Of a stretch of DNA of 64,000 bases, positions 20,578 to 60,989 are shown one piece after another (within the stretch, counting starts at the first letter, position 1; each line of letters starts with the position of its first letter). A program made the translations under genes and the position numbers. Source of the DNA: the human T2T-CHM13v2.0 reference genome, Homo sapiens; NCBI RefSeq assembly GCF_009914755.1, contig NC_060925.1; one strand, given 5' to 3'. The notes under the pieces are model-generated. The model was not told the origin of the DNA and did not search any database. It worked only from the letters and a program-made list of their open reading frames with translations.

Positions 20578-20904
20578 AAGTCCATTCCTTGGAAATCTGG
20601 GCATTCACATGCATCTCTTTAAGTCATGCTCAATGTCTAAATAAGGAAAATAACAAGGTCAAAATTCCACCCAACATAATATAACTATCCTGCATACAAC
20701 CAAAAATGCACTAACCCCTTCCTCAGGAGAGGAGGTACATTCTTTGAGGAATGGTCACTCTTCTTCTTGATATTTCATAACTTAAATAATATGAAGTAAA
20801 ATTCACAGTAGTTAATTACTGATATAGAGTCAATACATCTTATGTTATGTGATAAAGAAATAAGAGAGGAAAGAAAACAGAAAAACTTGCTTAATATACA
20901 CACA

Positions 20905-21215
20905 TATTTTATATATAGTTTTTATATATGTATATACATATACTATATATAGTATATATAGTATATATATATATATACTATATATAGTATATATAGTATA
21001 TATATATATATACTATATATAGTATATATAGTATATATATATATACTATATATAGTATATATACTATATAATAAATATATATTTATATATATATATATAA
21101 TATATATATTTATATATACATATACATATATACATAGACTATATATAGTATATACATATATGTATATTATATATAAAATATATATTTATATATAATATAT
21201 ATTTATATACATAAA
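20905..21215. repeat. TA-rich tandem repeat, core period about 33-35 bp
   Basis: Unit ctatatatagtatatatagtatatatatatatata recurs with C at 20943, 20978, 21013 and 21046. Confidence 0.9.
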
Positions 21216-23933: not shown

Positions 23934-24138
23934 TCTTTTTCATTTTAAAGGGATATCTGGACATGCACCACTGAACCCCCAGAAATTTCACGGAGATATA
24001 GGTTCCTGGATTATAGTCAGATATATTTCCCTCCCTCTGACATGCAAACGTCTTACCAATAAGTCTACAATAGTCGTTACTTCTTGTTCAGTAGGTTCAA
24101 TTAACGTAAGGTCATCAATGTAATGGACTAGTGTGATA

Positions 24139-24173
24139 TGTATGTATGTGTATATATATACATATATATATAT

Positions 24174-24211
<38 letters not shown>

Positions 24212-25458
24212 TTATATATATATATGTCACATTTTCTTTATCCACTCATTGACTGATGGGCATTTGGGCTGGTTCCATATTTTTGAAATTGCCAATTGTG
24301 CTGCTATAAACGTGTGTGAAGGTATTTTTTTTTTGTATAATGACTTCTTTTCCTCTGGATAGATACATAATAGTGGGATTGCTGGATCAAGCAGTAGATC
24401 TACTTTTAGTTCTTTACGGACTGTTCATACTGTTTTCCATAGTGGTTGTACTAGTTTATATTCCCACCAACAGTGTAAAAGTTCCCTTTTCATTGTATTC
24501 CTGCCAACATTAATTATTGTTTTATTTTTTTGATTATGGCCATTCTAGTAGAAATAAGATGGTATTGCAATGTGGTTTTGATTTGCATTTCCTTGATAAT
24601 TAGTGATACTGAGCATTTTTCCATATGCTTGTTGGCCATTTGTATGCCTTCTTTTGAGAATTGTCTATTTATGTCCTTAGTCCACTTTTTGATGGAATTG
24701 TTTGTTTTTTTCTTGCTGATTTGTTTGAGTTCCTTGTGGATTCTTGGTATTAGTCCTTTGTTGGATATATAGATTGTGAATATTTTCTACCACTCTGTGG
24801 GTTGTTTGCTAACTCTGCTATTTCTTCTGCTGTACAGAAGCTTTTTAGTTTAATTAAGTCCCATCTATTTATCTTTGTGTTGCATTTGCTTTTGGGTTCT
24901 CGGTCATGAAGTTTTTGCCGAAGCCAATGTCTAGAAGGGATTTTCCAATGTTATCTTCTAGAATCTTTATGGTTTCAGGTCTTAGATTTAAGTCTTTGAT
25001 TCATCTTGAGTTTATTTTTGTATAAGCTGAGAGATGATGATCCAATTTCATTCTTCTACATGTGGCTAGCCAAGTAGTCCAGCACCATTTGTTGAATAGG
25101 GTGTCCTTTCCCCCCTTTATGTTTTGGTTTGCTTTGTTGAAGGTCAGTTGGCTGTGAGAATTCGGCTTTATTTCTGGGTTCTCTATCCTGTTTTACTGGT
25201 CTATGTGCCTATTTTCATACCAGTACCATGGTGTTTTGATGACTATGGCCTTGTAGTATAGTTTTAAGTCAGGTAATGTGAGGTCCCCAGATTAGTTCTT
25301 TTTACTGAGTCTTGTGTTGGCTATGTGGGCTCCTTTTTGGTTCCATATGAATTTTAGGATTGTTTTTTCTGGTTCTGTGAAGAACGATGGTGGTATTTTG
25401 ATAGGAATTACATTGAATTTGCAGATTGCTTTTGGCAGTATGGTCATTTTCACAATTG
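24139..25458 (-). mobile_element. L1PB-like ORF2 3' fragment with (TA)n
   Basis: 'cacattttctttatccactc...tgctggatcaa...gaattttaggattgtttttc...ggcagtatggtcattttcacaat'. Confidence 0.85.
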
Positions 25459-28478: not shown

Positions 28479-29308
28479 TATTTTTTTTTTATTGTACTTT
28501 AAGTTCTAGGATACATGTGCACAACGTGCAGGTTTGTTACATATGTATACATGCGCCATGTTGCTGTGCTGCACCCATTAACTCGTCATTTACATTAGGT
28601 ATATCTCCTAATGCTATCCCTCCCCGCTCCCCCCACCCCATGACAGGCCCCAGTGTGTGATGTTCCCCTTCCTGTATCCAAGTGTTCTCATTGTTCAATT
28701 CCCACCTATGAGTGAGAACATGCGGTGTTTGGTTTTTTGTCCTTGCGATAGTTTGCTGAGAATGATGGTTTCCAGCTTCATCCATGTCCCTACAAAGGAC
28801 ATGAACTCATCCTTTATTGTGGCTGCATAGTATTCCATGGTGTATATGTGCCACATTTTCTTAATCCAGTCTATCATTGATGGACATTTGGGTTGGTTCC
28901 AAGTCTTTGCTATTGTGAATAGTGCCACAATAAACATACATGTGTATATGTCTTTATAGCAGCATGATTTATAATCCTTTGGGTATACACCCAGTAATGG
29001 GATGGCTGGGTCAAATGGTATTTCTAGTTCTAGATCCTTGAGGAATCACCACACTGTCTTCCATAATGGTTGAACTAATTTACAGGAACAGTGTAAAAGT
29101 GTTCCTGTTTCTCCACATCCTCTCCAGCACCTGTTGTTTCCTGACTTTTTAATGATCGCCATTCTAACTGGTGTGAGACGGTATCTCATTGTGGTTTTGA
29201 TTTGCAGTTCTCTGATGGCCAGTGATGATGAGATACCATCTCACACCAGTTAGAATGGCGATCATTAAAATGTCAGGAAACAACAGGTGCTGGAGAGGAT
29301 GTGGAGAA
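28479..29308 (-). mobile_element. L1PA (PA3-5-like) 3' fragment with a fold-back inverted duplication at its 5' end
   Basis: Poly-T, L1 3'UTR and ORF2 C-terminus (ORF 28695-28937 'MFIVALFTIAKTWNQPKCP'); 29228-29308 is the inverse of 29109-29189. Confidence 0.95.
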
Positions 29309-34854: not shown

Positions 34855-36690
34855 AATATTAAATTAATATTAATATAATATAATTAATTATAATATAATA
34901 TATTATATTAATATGTAATATAATATATTATATTATGTTAATATGTAATATAATATAGTATATTATGTTAATATGAAATATAATATAGTATATTATGTTA
35001 ATATGAAATATAATATATAATAACAATATCAATATAATTATAATACAATTTAATAATATTAATATAATATCATTATAGCAATTATACAATGATTATAATA
35101 TAATTATCAATGTATTAATTATTACTATATTATTAATAATATTATTAATATGTCAATTATTACTATATTGTTAATATAATTATTATATAATATAATATAA
35201 TTATATCACTATTATTATATTATAGTATTAATATAATAGTGTATAACATTAATATAATATAGTATTAATATAATAGCGTATAACATTAATATAACATAGT
35301 ATTAATATAATAGCGTATAACATTAATATAACATAGTATTAATATAATAGCGTATAACATTAATATAACATAGTATTAATATAATAGCGTATAACATTAA
35401 TATAACATAGTATTAATATAATAGCGTATAACATTAATATAACATAGTATTAATATAATAGCGTATAACATTAATATAACATAGTATTAATATAATAGCG
35501 TATAACATTAATATAACATATTATTAATATAATAGCGTATAACAATAATATAACATAGTATTAATATAATAGCGTATAACATTAATATAACATAGTATTA
35601 ATATAATAGCGTATAACATTAATATAACATAGTATTAATATAATAGCGTATAACATTAATATAACATAGTATTAATATAATAGCGTATAACATTAATATA
35701 ACATAGTATTAATATAATAGCGTATAACATTAATATAACATAGTATTAATATAATAGCGTATAACATTAATATAACATAGTATTAATATAATAGCGTATA
35801 ACATTAATATAACATAGTATTAATATAATAGCGTATAACATTAATATAACATAGTATTAATATAATAGCGTATAACATTAATATAACATAGTATTAATAT
35901 AATAGCGTATAACATTAATATAACATAGTATTAATATAATAGCGTATAACATTAATATAACATAGTATTAATATAATAGCGTATAACATTAATATAACAT
36001 AGTATTAATATAATAGCGTATAACATTAATATAATATAGTATTAATATAATAGCGTATAACATTAATATAATATAGTATTAATATAATAGCGTATAACAT
36101 TAATATAATATAGTATTAATATAATAGCGTATAACATTAATATAATATAGTATTAATATAATAGTGTATATTAATATAATATAGTATTAATATAATAGTA
36201 TATAATATTAATATAATATAATATCAATATAATAGTATATAATATTAATATAATATAATATCAATATAATAGTATATAATATTAATATAATATAATATCA
36301 ATACAATAGTATATATTAATATAATATAATATCAATACAATAGTATATATTAATATAATATAATATCAATACAATAGTATATAATATTAATATAATATAT
36401 CAATATAATAGTATATAATATAATATAATATATCAATATAATAGTATATAATATAATATAATATATCAATATAATAGTATATAATATAATATAATATATC
36501 AATATAATAGTATATAATATTAATATATTAATATAATAGTATATAATATTAATGTAATATAATATTAACATAATGTATATAATAATATAATAGTATATAA
36601 TACTAATATAATATAATATTACTATTATAGTATATTCTAACTTACATTACTATATAATACAATTAATTGTGATATAATTAATATTACTAA
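34855..36690. repeat. About 1.8-kb AT-rich tandem block containing a 37-bp VNTR (35224-36185, about 26 copies)
   Basis: Unit agtattaatataatagcgtataacattaatataacat; unit starts at 35224 and 36149 are 25x37 apart; degenerate AT repeats on both sides. Confidence 0.97.
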
Positions 36691-39731: not shown

Positions 39732-39802
39732 ATATATGTGTGTGTGTACATATATATATACACATACATATGTATATATGTATATATGGGTGTGTATATA
39801 TA

Positions 39803-39845
<43 letters not shown>
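39732..39845. repeat. Compound (TG)/(TA) microsatellite
   Basis: Seen directly. Confidence 0.95.
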
Positions 39846-58478: not shown

Positions 58479-58959
58479 TGTTAGCTTGCAAAGATGGCCA
58501 CAATTTCTTATCTCTCCCTGTATCTGTATTTTTGCCAGACTATTCCGTAGTTCTTCTAAAGGGATCAAGTCTATTTCCTTACCTTTTAAATATGGACAGG
58601 TTTTGTGGCTTTCTTTAGTTAATATACTCGGTGGAACTGATGATGTGTAGTTCTGACTTAAGACATCTATGGGATGTTTCTGCTTCCTCTGTGGCTCTCT
58701 TGCAGGCTACTTCTGGCATGTCCTTGTGGTAATGGGAGATTTGCAAGAAAGCAGTCCAAGGCTTTGATCAGCCATCTGCCATCCAGCCTTCAAATCTGTA
58801 AGCCAGATCAACAAGGAAGATTCACATAGCCAACTGTCAGCTGACTCAACAGTGTGCCCAATACACACTGCTTGTTAAATGCCACGAGGGTTTGGTTTAG
58901 TTTCTTAAAAGGAAATGTTTTTTCCTTTTAACTGTATCAGTCAAAAGACAACTGATACA
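58479..58959 (+). mobile_element. MLT1H-like LTR, degraded
   Basis: 'ttgcaaagatggccacaatttc...agtctatttccttacc...ttgttaaatgccacgagggtttgg...caactgataca'. Confidence 0.75.
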
Positions 58960-59033
58960 GACTCCAAAACTGTGTGCTAACTCATGATGGCATGTTAAAA
59001 CTGGAATGTGTCCAGCTATATAAAAAATTTTTT

Positions 59034-59327
59034 GGCTGGGCGCAGTGGTTCACATCTGTAATCTCAGCACTTTGGGAGACTGAGGCAGGAGGATTCCTTG
59101 AACTCAGGAATTCGAGACTACCCTAGGCAACAAGGGGAATCTCCGTCTCTACAAAAAATGCCAAAAAATATTAGCTGGGTATGGTGGTGCATGCCTCTAG
59201 ACCCAGCTGCTTGGGAAACTGAGGTAGGAGGATCACTTGAGCCCACGAGGTTGAGGCTGTTGTGAACTGAGATCACACCACTGCACTCCCAGCCTAGGTG
59301 GCAGAGTGAGACCCCGTCTCAAAAAAT
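59034..59327 (+). mobile_element. AluJ
   Basis: 'gaggatcacttgagcccacgaggttgaggctg' J-type right arm. Confidence 0.92.
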
Positions 59328-59640
59328 TTAAATTTTTTTTAAAAAATTATGATTATGTGTGGAGGGTTAATACGTTATTTCATTTATTTTCCAACTTTTA
59401 ATTGTGATTAAAAAATGACACCTACAGAAAGTTACAAGCATAGAAGAATATATATATATATATATAATATATATATCCCTCATTTAGATGTGCAAATGTT
59501 AACATTTCACCACACTGATTTCTTTTTGTATTCATCTGTAGGATTGTTTTCTGATGAATCAATTGAAAGTAGATTAAAGATAGCATAATCTTTCATTATT
59601 AAATTTTGTCTAGCCATGGTAAATGACTACTAGTCACTCA

Positions 59641-59858
59641 CTTATTGTAAGACACAGCTTCCATTTAGCAGGACTCCATCCATGGAAGTTGTTTGAAAGG
59701 CCGATGCATATTGGATATGGCCAATGTCCTTGTGGTAATGGGAGAGGTGCAACACACTGGGAGAGGCCAATGCATTGGCCATATCCAATATGCACTGGCC
59801 TTTCAAAGGGCTTCCATGGATGCAGTCCTGCTAAATTGAAGCTGTGTCTTACAAGAAG
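59641..59858. repeat. Long inverted repeat: 86-bp arms, 46-nt loop
   Basis: 59641-59726 vs reverse complement of 59773-59858: 78/86 identical, no gaps (aligned by hand). Confidence 0.97.
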
Positions 59859-60989
59859 TTTCATATAAGACATCCTTAAGAATCATGTTTATGAGTAAAT
59901 TGAAATTTAACATAAAAAATAAATTACAAATACATATGTAAATATGAGACACCAGTTTTTTTTCCTACTTATAGGAAAAAAATTTTAACTAGATACATTA
60001 TATCTGAAAAACATTTATTAGAACTTCACAACAATTAGCTTTGACAATGAACCTTAACACTTTCATTTGCCTCAACAGATTTGGAAATGAGGTTATGGTA
60101 AAATATTATACTTACTTTATAGTGAGCATCTCATTGCTCTCAGAAGAACTAGAGAGTTAATTCTGCTGTTAAGTAATAATGTATGTAATTTTTTTTCTTT
60201 CAATAACTTTTTGTGTTCTTCTAAAATACAAAATCACGCTGTGGAAGTAGATGAATACGCTGATCTTTGTTTTTATTATTTTTTCTCTGTTATATATAAG
60301 AAAATTTCTCCTCTGATAATAAATGGATATATATATATTATTTTTTCATTTATGAATTAGGTCTTTCTTGTTTGCTGAAAGAGTTTTATCTAAACATCAT
60401 TGTCACCTGTGCTAACTTGAAGTGTTGGGGATAAAAATTGCTTTCTTTCTTTTTATTTCAATCACCAGAATGTGTAGAATTAGCATTTTGTAAACTTGTG
60501 AGCAAGGCATCAACAAAACCAAGCCCAAACTTCCTGGATTGGACCTCGGTATTTTTCCCATGAAAATTAATTCTTAAAGAAGGTATCACTTAGAGAAATT
60601 ATCTGCACATAAGAACCACATAATCTCGCAAAGACAAAAAGCTTTCAAGTTCCTAGACACCACCCAAAATCAAATGAAACAAAGTTTCATGAATTAAGGT
60701 CCAGGAACTTGAATTTATCAATAGTTCTTTCCATAACTGTGGCATGTTCTTCCTTTTCTTGTAAAAGGACTTTGCTTGCTGAGTGATCAACCTATCCATC
60801 TCTTCTTTATCTTCCAAAAGTGTACAGGTAATATAAAGAGAAGTTATAAACCAAAAATTCAATAACACTAGTCTTATATTTATCTCTGTATTTAACTTTA
60901 TCATAATTCTTTATTTTTTCATATGGCTTCAAATTGCTATCTAGTGTTTTTTTGTTTGTTTGTTTTCATTTCTTCCTAAAGGACTTCCT

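What the first reader, a model, noticed from the sequence alone, without database searches (positions are those of the whole stretch)
58718..59745. Hairpin loop carries an exact 22-nt copy of an LTR sequence 1,006 bp upstream
Seen: atgtccttgtggtaatgggaga occurs at 58718-58739 (inside the MLT1H-like LTR) and at 59724-59745 (stem top and loop), same orientation. Patchy similarity continues past it (tgcaa...gccat...gcc(t)ttcaaa in both). From memory the LTR copy is far from consensus here, so the match looks locus-specific rather than family-wide. Inference: (a) templated insertion by polymerase-theta end joining or template switching; (b) the hairpin arose from a local duplicate of the LTR; or (c), speculatively, a structured RNA displaying a guide-length loop that could pair with the neighbouring LTR DNA or its antisense RNA. 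An exact 22-mer next to eroded flanks is hard to explain by an old duplication alone.
Basis: partly seen in the sequence, partly recalled or inferred. Interest (0 to 1): 0.8.

Follow-up and report, generated by a model that had tools for sequence, protein, structure and literature searches.

The report
LTR patch at palindrome centre
A short piece of a nearby ancient retroviral LTR was copied into the exact middle of a unique 220-base DNA palindrome, most likely as a scar of error-prone DNA break repair and not as a working RNA element.

Summary
The 22-mer is exact at 58718 and 59724, same strand, and occurs nowhere else in the T2T genome. Identity extends to 27/29 nt and then stops: no flank similarity beats shuffles.

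The hairpin is a single-copy palindrome, not a transposon family. Its arms are 59640-59726 and 59773-59859 (87 nt, 91% complementary), with a 46-nt spacer.

The spacer reads like a repair scar:
- the LTR patch, joined at a 3-nt microhomology (ATG);
- 5 unexplained nt;
- a second short TGGGAGA(GG) copy, making a 9-nt internal repeat (41 of 20,000 shuffles);
- GGCCAATG, which repeats the left arm's last 8 nt and forms a perfect 16-nt palindrome with the right arm.

Arm divergence (8/87) and patch divergence (2/29) do not differ.

Best reading: a break or stalled synthesis at the palindrome centre, repaired by microhomology-primed, repeatedly aborted copying from LTR-derived DNA 1 kb upstream. 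Option (b), an old LTR duplicate, is not supported. Option (c), an RNA guide, has no evidence. Dating and the order of events need primate orthologues, which were not available here. This is a tidy example of a known kind; interest is low to moderate.

The parts
58718..58746 (+). Presumed donor tract in LTR-derived DNA: the exact 22-mer (58718-58739) plus 7 more nt, of which 5 match the hairpin copy
   Evidence: D2, 27/29. The exact word is found genome-wide only here and in the hairpin. Four of the 6 two-mismatch relatives lie in one LTR family.
58760..58806 (+). LTR-tail motif region showing that the upstream copy lies in LTR-derived sequence
   Evidence: The 24-mer 58780-58803 has 9 other genomic hits at 3 mismatches against about 1.3 expected (my arithmetic) and 0 for the control. 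Three of these (L047, L051, L052) share a common LTR tail, and the window aligns with them here. Homology outside the motif is not significant.
59027..59330 (+). Alu element lying between donor and hairpin (5 CpG left in 304 nt)
   Evidence: Sub-threshold Metazoa_SRP matches at 59035-59151 and 59174-59322. Sequence read; CpG count.
59640..59726 (+). Left arm of the palindrome, ending in GGCCAATG at the symmetry axis
   Evidence: I1. Arm alignment shows 8 mismatches in 87, about 5 events. Single-copy by three probes.
59724..59752 (+). LTR-derived patch (27/29 identical to 58718-58746). Its first 3 nt (ATG) are shared with the end of the left arm, forming a junctional microhomology
59727..59772 (+). 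The 46-nt spacer between the arms
   Evidence: The longest internal direct repeat is 9 nt, reached in 41 of 20,000 shuffles.
59753..59757 (+). CACAC: 5 nt with no identified template
   Evidence: No local source above chance. A genome-wide probe of 59746-59766 gave only 7 unlinked hits at 2 mismatches.
59758..59766 (+). Second TGGGAGAGG, a direct repeat of 59739-59747. Its first 7 nt also match the LTR at 58733-58739
   Evidence: A 7-mer shared with a random 81-nt window segment occurred in 144 of 5000 trials.
59765..59772 (+). GGCCAATG: a direct repeat of the left arm's last 8 nt (59719-59726). With 59773-59780 it forms a perfect 16-nt palindrome, as expected if a hairpin-capped end was opened 8 nt off its apex (inference)
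   Evidence: Coordinates. The mechanism is inferred.
59773..59859 (+). Right arm of the palindrome
   Evidence: The palindrome ends sharply, with no degraded outer extension (454 of 500 shuffles reach the observed score).

Best explanation
A 2 x 87-nt palindrome of unique sequence broke, or stalled DNA synthesis, at its symmetry centre. The lesion was repaired by microhomology-primed, low-processivity, repeatedly aborted DNA synthesis. That synthesis used LTR-derived DNA about 1 kb upstream as a transient template, most simply the strand exposed on the opposite, resected break end. Proposed steps, all inferred: (1) the spacer-less palindrome forms a cruciform or hairpin and is cut at the centre, giving hairpin-capped ends; (2) one end is opened at the apex (...GGCCAATG) and the other 8 nt off the apex, which creates the extra inverted GGCCAATG; (3) a 3' end anneals on the LTR, copies a few nt (TGGGAGA), dissociates, re-anneals and copies 22-29 nt; (4) the new end, now finishing in ATG/CAT, pairs with the other break end and is sealed. 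The result is a 46-nt spacer that stabilises the palindrome, which would help explain why it survived. Shown directly: the exact, locus-specific copy, its sharp borders, its central position, the direct repeats and the single-copy arms. Inferred: the break, the enzymes (Pol theta-like end joining, hairpin opening) and the order of steps. I expect no function: this is a neutral mutational scar roughly 15-50 million years old.
For: Exact 22-mer, 27/29 overall, same orientation. Genome-wide the exact word exists only at these two sites, so the neighbouring copy is by far the best donor. Homology stops abruptly at both ends, which fits a short templated patch. The patch sits at the axis of a palindrome whose arms are single-copy: of 28 loci fetched with the inner-arm probe, none matches more than 26 nt; the mid-arm and outer-arm 24-mers hit only the two arms plus 1 and 3 chance-level sites. 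Scar features: ATG is shared at the left junction. TGGGAGAGG occurs twice in the spacer (41 of 20,000 shuffles reach a 9-nt repeat). GGCCAATG is duplicated, giving a perfect 16-nt palindrome at 59765-59780. Arm divergence (8/87) and patch divergence (2/29) are indistinguishable (Fisher p = 1.0), so palindrome and patch are of similar age. Literature (passages read): Pol theta end joining leaves 3-30-bp insertions identical to flanking DNA, produced by aborted rounds of synthesis; direct-repeat insertions come from copying the other resected end (PMC7165422). Human palindromes break at their centre through diagonal cruciform cleavage plus hairpin-tip cleavage, with Artemis and ligase IV implicated (PMC4940405). 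A 42-bp central spacer abolishes inverted-repeat-induced recombination (PMC3300023).
Against: The template is 1006 nt away, whereas described Pol theta templated insertions are local: microhomology use is largely limited to about 15 bp from the break (PMC7165422). Two adjacent mismatches (TT in the LTR, GG in the hairpin) fall inside the 29-nt tract, so either the copied tract is only 22 nt or two substitutions followed. Five nt (CACAC) have no template. The second LTR 7-mer is only weakly significant (144 of 5000 random segments). The origin of the palindrome itself is unexplained. Direction of copying rests on geometry and motif-level LTR evidence only; masked-flank tests against LTR copies were not significant. 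There are no outgroup genomes, so no intermediate state (a palindrome without the patch) has been seen, and gene conversion between the arms could make the palindrome look younger than it is.
Confidence: 0.45

Rival explanations
1. One complex replicative event (serial template switching of the FoSTeS/MMBIR or foldback type) created the palindrome and the patch together. A 3' end from a broken or stalled fork copied briefly on the LTR 1 kb away. It then snapped back on its own strand through the ATG/CAT microhomology and copied about 87 nt in reverse, which became the left arm. It then rejoined the original template at 59639/59640. In this model the right arm and part of the spacer are the ancestral sequence.
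For: The similar divergence of arms and patch fits a single event. The outer borders of the palindrome are sharp. Foldback inversions of 2 to about 150 bp with a 41-nt loop are documented at yeast breaks (PMC11724301, passages). Template-switch mutations create hairpins of 28 and up to 83 bases in primates (PMC10710096, passages). MMBIR-type insertions assembled from two or three templates are documented (PMC8421209, passages).
Against: The 16-nt perfect palindrome GGCCAATGCATTGGCC at the right junction would have to pre-exist, at about 1 in 65,000 per site unless it caused the event. MMBIR insertions as defined in PMC8421209 are inverted copies of templates within 100 bp, whereas the patch is direct and 1 kb away. 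The four-point template-switch model explicitly leaves out multi-round and long-range switches (PMC5453318).
Confidence: 0.35
2. The hairpin arose from an old local duplicate of the LTR, and the 22-mer is the last well-preserved remnant of that duplicate.
For: Same orientation and proximity. The 22-mer resembles a motif of an LTR family.
Against: No similarity beyond the 29-mer in either orientation. A 22-nt exact island inside otherwise unalignable old copies is very unlikely. The arms have no relatives among the loci fetched with the three arm probes; the LTR-family loci were compared with the hairpin only as flanks, not significantly.
Confidence: 0.04
3. The copying ran the other way, or the identity is kept up by short-tract gene conversion between the two sites.
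For: The LTR identity of 58718-58746 is shown only at motif level. At position 23 the hairpin copy (G) agrees with related LTR copies while the LTR itself has T.
Against: The hairpin copy interrupts an otherwise perfect symmetry and is flanked by an 8-nt duplication, which is the signature of an insertion there. The upstream copy sits 40 nt from an LTR-tail motif and is colinear with other LTR copies over 33-43 nt. Conversion needs flanking homology, and there is none.
Confidence: 0.05
4. The hairpin is a palindromic transposon (MITE), or a transcribed hairpin RNA (miRNA or endo-siRNA precursor), whose loop displays a 22-nt LTR-sense guide that pairs with the LTR's antisense RNA or DNA.
For: A very stable hairpin. 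The loop segment is guide-sized and identical to the neighbouring LTR. Weak hits to the Rfam hairpin families MIR2630 and mir-3927.
Against: The Rfam hits are far below threshold (87 against 144 bits; 27 against 90 bits), score equally on both strands, and one is a plant family, so they are generic hairpin matches. The arms are single-copy and I saw no target-site duplication at 59639/59860 in the sequence. The supplied RefSeq table has no gene or miRNA here. Known small-RNA guides come from stems, not from 46-nt loops (general knowledge). The spacer is partly self-paired.
Confidence: 0.03

Closest known systems
Polymerase-theta-mediated end joining with templated insertions (TINS; PMC7165422, passages read)
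   Same: The insertion length (22-29 nt) lies within the 3-30 bp reported. It is identical to DNA in cis. There is a junctional microhomology (ATG). The short direct repeats inside the insert are as expected from aborted, repeated synthesis. The direct orientation is as expected from copying the other resected end.
   Different: The template is about 1 kb from the junction instead of within tens of bp. The event is in the germline and fixed. The site is a palindrome centre. Enzyme dependence cannot be tested from sequence.
Centre breakage and revision of palindromes (PATRR translocations, PMC4940405 passages; 'center-break' palindrome revision cited in PMC3300023, original paper not held)
   Same: The modification sits exactly at the symmetry axis. 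The 8-nt inverted extra copy fits opening of a hairpin tip off the apex. The resulting spacer of more than 40 nt is of a size shown to quench inverted-repeat instability.
   Different: This palindrome is not AT-rich (46% G+C) and is shorter than PATRRs. The outcome is an insertion, not a small deletion or a translocation.
Foldback inversions and template-switch mutations that create hairpins (PMC11724301, PMC5453318, PMC10710096; passages read)
   Same: An inverted copy of adjacent unique sequence with a spacer of about 40 nt. The arm length (87 nt) lies within the 2 to about 150 bp and up to 83-base ranges reported.
   Different: Those models use a single switch and return and give only inverted copies of nearby sequence. 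Here a direct-orientation stop-over 1 kb away is also needed.
MMBIR templated insertions (MMB-TI, PMC8421209; passages read)
   Same: A short templated insertion flanked by microhomology, and multi-template junctions are known.
   Different: As defined there, the template is within 100 bp and the copy is inverted. The LTR patch is direct and 1006 nt away.

Membership tests
Pol theta templated insertion (TINS) | Inserted tract of about 3-30 bp identical to DNA flanking the break | tested here: met
   22 exact, 27/29 overall. The length range is from PMC7165422.
Pol theta templated insertion (TINS) | Template lies locally, within tens of bp of the break | tested here: not met
   The donor is 1006 nt upstream, and about 700 nt even without the intervening Alu.
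Pol theta templated insertion (TINS) | Microhomology at junctions and repeats from aborted synthesis rounds | tested here: met
   ATG shared at the left junction; 9-nt repeat in the spacer (41 of 20,000 shuffles); 8-nt GGCCAATG duplication.
Pol theta templated insertion (TINS) | Dependence on POLQ | not testable with these tools
   Needs a cell-based assay.
Single template-switch mutation (four-point model) | One switch and return; the copied fragment is the reverse complement of nearby sequence | tested here: inconclusive
   The arms fit. The LTR patch is in direct orientation and long-range, which the model excludes (PMC5453318).
MMBIR templated insertion (MMB-TI) | Inverted copy of 10 bp or more of a template within 100 bp | tested here: not met
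   The patch is direct and 1006 nt away.
MITE / palindromic DNA transposon | Multiple related copies in the genome | tested here: not met
   Three arm probes give only the two arms plus chance-level hits. None of the 28 loci fetched with the inner-arm probe matches more than 26 nt. Caveat: families diverged by more than about 15% would be missed.
MITE / palindromic DNA transposon | Target-site duplication flanking the terminal inverted repeats | tested here: not met
   The flanks read ...CTAGTCACTC | arm ... arm | TTCATATAAG..., with no duplication seen by eye.
miRNA / hairpin RNA family (Rfam) | Score at or above the family's gathering threshold | tested here: not met
   MIR2630 87 against 144 bits; mir-3927 27 against 90 bits; both hits on both strands.
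ERVL-MaLR LTR (MLT1H-like) for 58480-58920 | Colinear homology to the family along the LTR | tested here: inconclusive
Motif-level only. Four of the 6 near matches of the 22-mer lie in one LTR family. L007 is colinear over 28/33 and L004 over 33/43. The tail 24-mer is enriched, 9 hits against about 1.3 expected, and aligns with 3 LTR tails. Flank tests are not significant.
PATRR-type fragile palindrome | AT-rich, several hundred bp, near-perfect symmetry without a spacer | tested here: not met
   46% G+C, 2 x 87 nt, 46-nt spacer.

The most novel reading that the evidence does not exclude
The palindrome is transcribed, and its 46-nt loop presents an LTR-sense 22-mer that pairs with antisense transcripts or the unwound DNA of the neighbouring LTR. 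That would be a locally born cis-acting guide or decoy created in one step by a repair accident. A milder version: the scar is a rare germline record of a single break repair that combined off-apex hairpin opening with kilobase-range trans-templated end joining. That would extend the known reach of templated insertions.
Probability: 0.03. Interest if true: 0.7.

Novelty: new member of a known kind. Interest (0 to 1): 0.25.

Why it matters
This locus is a clean, fixed germline example where most of a complex junction can be read base by base. It shows a unique palindrome whose centre carries a patch copied from 1 kb away, plus the short repeats expected from stop-and-go repair synthesis. It illustrates how long palindromes can be stabilised in the human genome, and how a single mutational event can create a long hairpin with a loop matching a neighbouring element. 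It does not open a new question. A genome-wide census of such centre patches could, however, say how far repair polymerases reach for templates in the germline.

Tried and rejected
1. Chance: rejected.
2. Family-wide LTR word: the exact form is specific to this locus. The near matches (2 mismatches) lie in other LTR copies that share nothing else with the hairpin.
3. Extended LTR-hairpin homology: none.
4. Degraded outer extension of the palindrome: none (454 of 500 shuffles score as well, and 22 of 45 same-geometry control pairs).
5. Transposon family for the arms: the whole-genome DNA searches found only the locus itself and its own inverted arm. That search also failed to find any relative of the LTR segment, so it is insensitive to old repeats. 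The pattern probes were at chance level. I first read the 50 hits as a family. My arithmetic then showed about 53 are expected by chance, and the reversed control is low because it contains CpGs.
6. Second donor for the rest of the spacer: none locally or genome-wide.
7. Rfam: the MIR2630 and mir-3927 hits are generic hairpin matches.
8. Proving the LTR identity by pairwise alignment to other copies: it failed beyond 22-43 nt.
9. A hAT-like 8-bp target duplication around the 38-nt insert: rejected by eye, because the insert has no terminal inverted repeats.
11. The original centre-break paper is not held.
12. No primate or other mammalian genomes were available, so dating by orthologues and co-variation tests could not be done.

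Full report
**Observation**

The 22-mer ATGTCCTTGTGGTAATGGGAGA occurs exactly at 58718-58739 and 59724-59745 on the + strand. It occurs nowhere else in the window even with 3 mismatches, and 0 of 100 shuffles gave a match. The match extends to 27 of 29 nt with a start-to-start spacing of 1006 nt (D2).

In the whole T2T assembly the exact word is found only at these two places. Six further sites match with 2 mismatches. The reversed-pattern control gave 0, and about 0.8 are expected by my own arithmetic for a uniform genome.

The claimed patchy similarity beyond the match is not confirmed. After the 29-mer, local alignments of the LTR flanks against the hairpin flanks, in both orientations, are no better than shuffles (48/300, 145/300, 291/300 and 278/300 shuffles reach the observed score).

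**The hairpin**

- Arms are 59640-59726 and 59773-59859: 87 nt, 91% complementary, 46 nt apart (I1).
- The predicted fold is extremely stable. As RNA it is -154.3 kcal/mol with z = -16. As DNA it is -89.2 kcal/mol with z = -17.4.
- The arms differ at 8 of 87 positions in about 5 mutational events, including one 3-nt cluster and one GA/AG swap.
- The palindrome ends sharply. The outer flanks are not complementary above chance (454 of 500 shuffles score as well; 22 of 45 same-geometry control pairs elsewhere in the window score as well).

The hairpin is not a member of a recognisable repeat family.

- The inner-arm 21-mer with up to 3 mismatches gave 50 hits. That is the number expected by chance (about 53, my arithmetic).
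- None of the 28 loci fetched with that probe shares more than 26 nt with the hairpin.
- The mid-arm and outer-arm 24-mers hit only the two arms plus 1 and 3 sites at 3 mismatches, against about 1.3 expected.
- A 1066-nt query covering the palindrome and its flanks matched only itself, its own inverted arm, and a (TA)n microsatellite.
- I saw no target-site duplication at the arm borders.
- The Rfam hits (MIR2630 at 87 bits against a threshold of 144; mir-3927 at 27 against 90) score equally on both strands, and one is a plant family. They reflect hairpin shape, not kinship.
- Caveat: repeat families older than about 15% divergence would escape these probes, and no repeat library was available.

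**The upstream copy**

Four of the six two-mismatch relatives of the 22-mer (L003, L006, L007, L008) align with each other as copies of one LTR family. I recall this family as THE1/MST-like MaLR, but that name comes from memory and not from a tool.

L007 is colinear with the window over 28/33 nt, running past the 22-mer. L004 is colinear over 33/43 nt upstream of it.

Forty nucleotides downstream, the 24-mer 58780-58803 has 9 other genomic hits at 3 mismatches, against about 1.3 expected and 0 for the control. Three of those loci (L047, L051, L052) share a typical LTR tail with which the window aligns.

Beyond these motifs, pairwise tests against individual copies are not significant. The best of 24 tests was 8/200, and the best of 6 tests was 44/500. 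So 'LTR-derived' is supported at motif level, while 'MLT1H' could not be tested.

An Alu lies between donor and hairpin, shown by sub-threshold SRP matches at 59035-59151 and 59174-59322. With only 5 CpG left in 304 nt it is probably older than the event, but that is a guess.

**Anatomy of the centre** (sequence, coordinates)

The left arm ends in GGCCAATG (59719-59726). The spacer then reads as follows.

- **59727-59752:** TCCTTGTGGTAATGGGAGA-GG-TGCAA. Together with the preceding ATG this is the LTR patch, 27/29 identical to 58718-58746.
- **59753-59757:** CACAC, with no identified source locally or genome-wide.
- **59758-59766:** TGGGAGAGG, a 9-nt direct repeat of 59739-59747. A repeat this long arises in 41 of 20,000 shuffles of the spacer. 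Its first 7 nt also match the LTR, although a 7-mer shared with a random 81-nt segment occurs in 144 of 5000 trials, so this is only suggestive.
- **59765-59772:** GGCCAATG, a second copy of the left arm's last 8 nt. It is followed directly by the right arm (CATTGGCC...), so 59765-59780 is a perfect 16-nt palindrome.

If the 38 nt at 59727-59764 and one GGCCAATG are removed, the two arms abut as a spacer-less palindrome.

**Interpretation**

The structure has the hallmarks of a repair or replication scar:

- a sharply bounded templated patch in direct orientation;
- a junctional microhomology (ATG);
- short direct repeats as left by aborted and resumed synthesis;
- a few untemplated bases;
- an inverted 8-nt extra copy, as expected if a hairpin-capped end was nicked 8 nt off its apex (like P nucleotides; inference).

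The literature fits this (passages read in each case).

- Pol theta end joining leaves 3-30-bp insertions identical to flanking DNA through aborted synthesis rounds. Direct-repeat insertions arise by copying the second resected end, and inverted ones by intramolecular hairpin priming (PMC7165422).
- Human palindromes break at their centre through diagonal cruciform cleavage plus hairpin-tip cleavage, with Artemis and ligase IV implicated (PMC4940405).
- A 42-bp spacer placed at the symmetry axis abolishes inverted-repeat-induced recombination, and a 52-bp spacer removes fork stalling at Alu inverted repeats (PMC3300023).

The LTR lies on the far side of the presumed break. After about 1 kb of resection, its + strand would be exposed as a template for the 3' end of the other break end. 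This explains both the direct orientation and the side on which the donor lies.

I therefore favour a centre break of a just-born or pre-existing perfect palindrome, repaired by iterative microhomology-primed synthesis on the LTR (confidence 0.45).

The main rival (0.35) is a single serial template-switch or foldback event that made the left arm and the patch together.

- Foldback inversions of 2 to about 150 bp with a 41-nt loop occur at yeast breaks (PMC11724301).
- Template-switch mutations of 28 and up to 83 bases create hairpins in primates (PMC10710096).
- The four-point model explicitly excludes multi-round and long-range switches (PMC5453318).
- MMBIR insertions as defined in PMC8421209 are inverted copies of templates within 100 bp.

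Under both models the element is a non-functional scar.

**Points against**

- The 1006-nt template distance lies outside the local range described for Pol theta.
- The two adjacent mismatches (TT against GG) fall inside the tract.
- CACAC is unexplained.
- The origin of the palindrome is unknown.
- The direction of copying rests on geometry plus motif-level LTR evidence.

**Age**

Jukes-Cantor distances are as follows.

| Comparison | Differences | Distance |
|---|---|---|
| Arms, all mismatches | 8/87 | 0.098 |
| Arms, counted as events | 5/87 | 0.060 |
| Patch | 2/29 | 0.072 |

Arms and patch are not distinguishable (Fisher p = 1.0). Zero mismatches in 22 nt is unremarkable at these rates (P = 0.12-0.28). 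With recalled neutral rates of 1.0-2.2 x 10^-9 per site per year, this gives roughly 14-49 million years. That is far younger than an ancient MaLR LTR (recalled as older than 100 million years). Conversion between the arms would bias this estimate downward.

**Other readings**

No family match reaches threshold, the supplied table has no annotated gene, and the loop is partly self-paired. Expression and conservation could not be examined, so I leave it at about 3%.

**Novelty and score**

Templated insertions, foldback inversions and centre revision of palindromes are all known. This locus is a neat fixed germline example that combines them, with an unusually distant template.

My literature searches were on mechanisms. 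I did not search for this specific locus. From the listings I saw no title on kilobase-range templated patches at palindrome centres, which is weak evidence of absence.

Interest is 0.25. The decisive test is a primate alignment, which was not available here.

Noticed in passing
window 29109-29189 / 29228-29308: The only other long inverted repeat of complex sequence in the window: 81-nt arms, 98% complementary, 38-nt spacer. By eye it lies inside LINE-1 sequence with the two arms in opposite orientation. That would fit an L1 5'-inversion junction made by twin priming, with an overlapping duplication. Both the L1 identity and the mechanism are recalled, not tested.
   Followed up: partly
window 20890-21190: An AT-rich microsatellite-like block that forms many overlapping near-perfect palindromes, for example 66-nt arms with 0-nt spacer at 85% and 56-nt arms at 96%. 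It resembles palindromic AT-rich repeats, which are known to be fragile. Similar but weaker blocks lie at 24130-24230, 34870-34990 and 39734-39845.
   Followed up: no
window 59440-59490: A (TA)n microsatellite about 150 nt upstream of the palindrome. It is the only part of 59335-60400 with matches elsewhere in the genome.
   Followed up: no
window 58740-58741 vs 59746-59747: The only two differences inside the 29-nt tract are adjacent (TT in the LTR, GG in the hairpin). GG also follows the second TGGGAGA copy. At position 23 the related LTR copies L007 and L008 have G like the hairpin. Either the donor carried G(G) at the time of copying, or the GG was copied from the GGCCAATG junction.
   Followed up: partly
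L014 (G000:C4:114147971-114147991): A 23/24-nt match to the innermost arm plus the first two spacer bases (TGCAT.TTGGATATGGCCAATGTC), with no homology beyond it. About 0.1 hits with 1 mismatch or fewer are expected by chance for the 21-mer. Its origin is unknown and it is probably a coincidence.
   Followed up: partly
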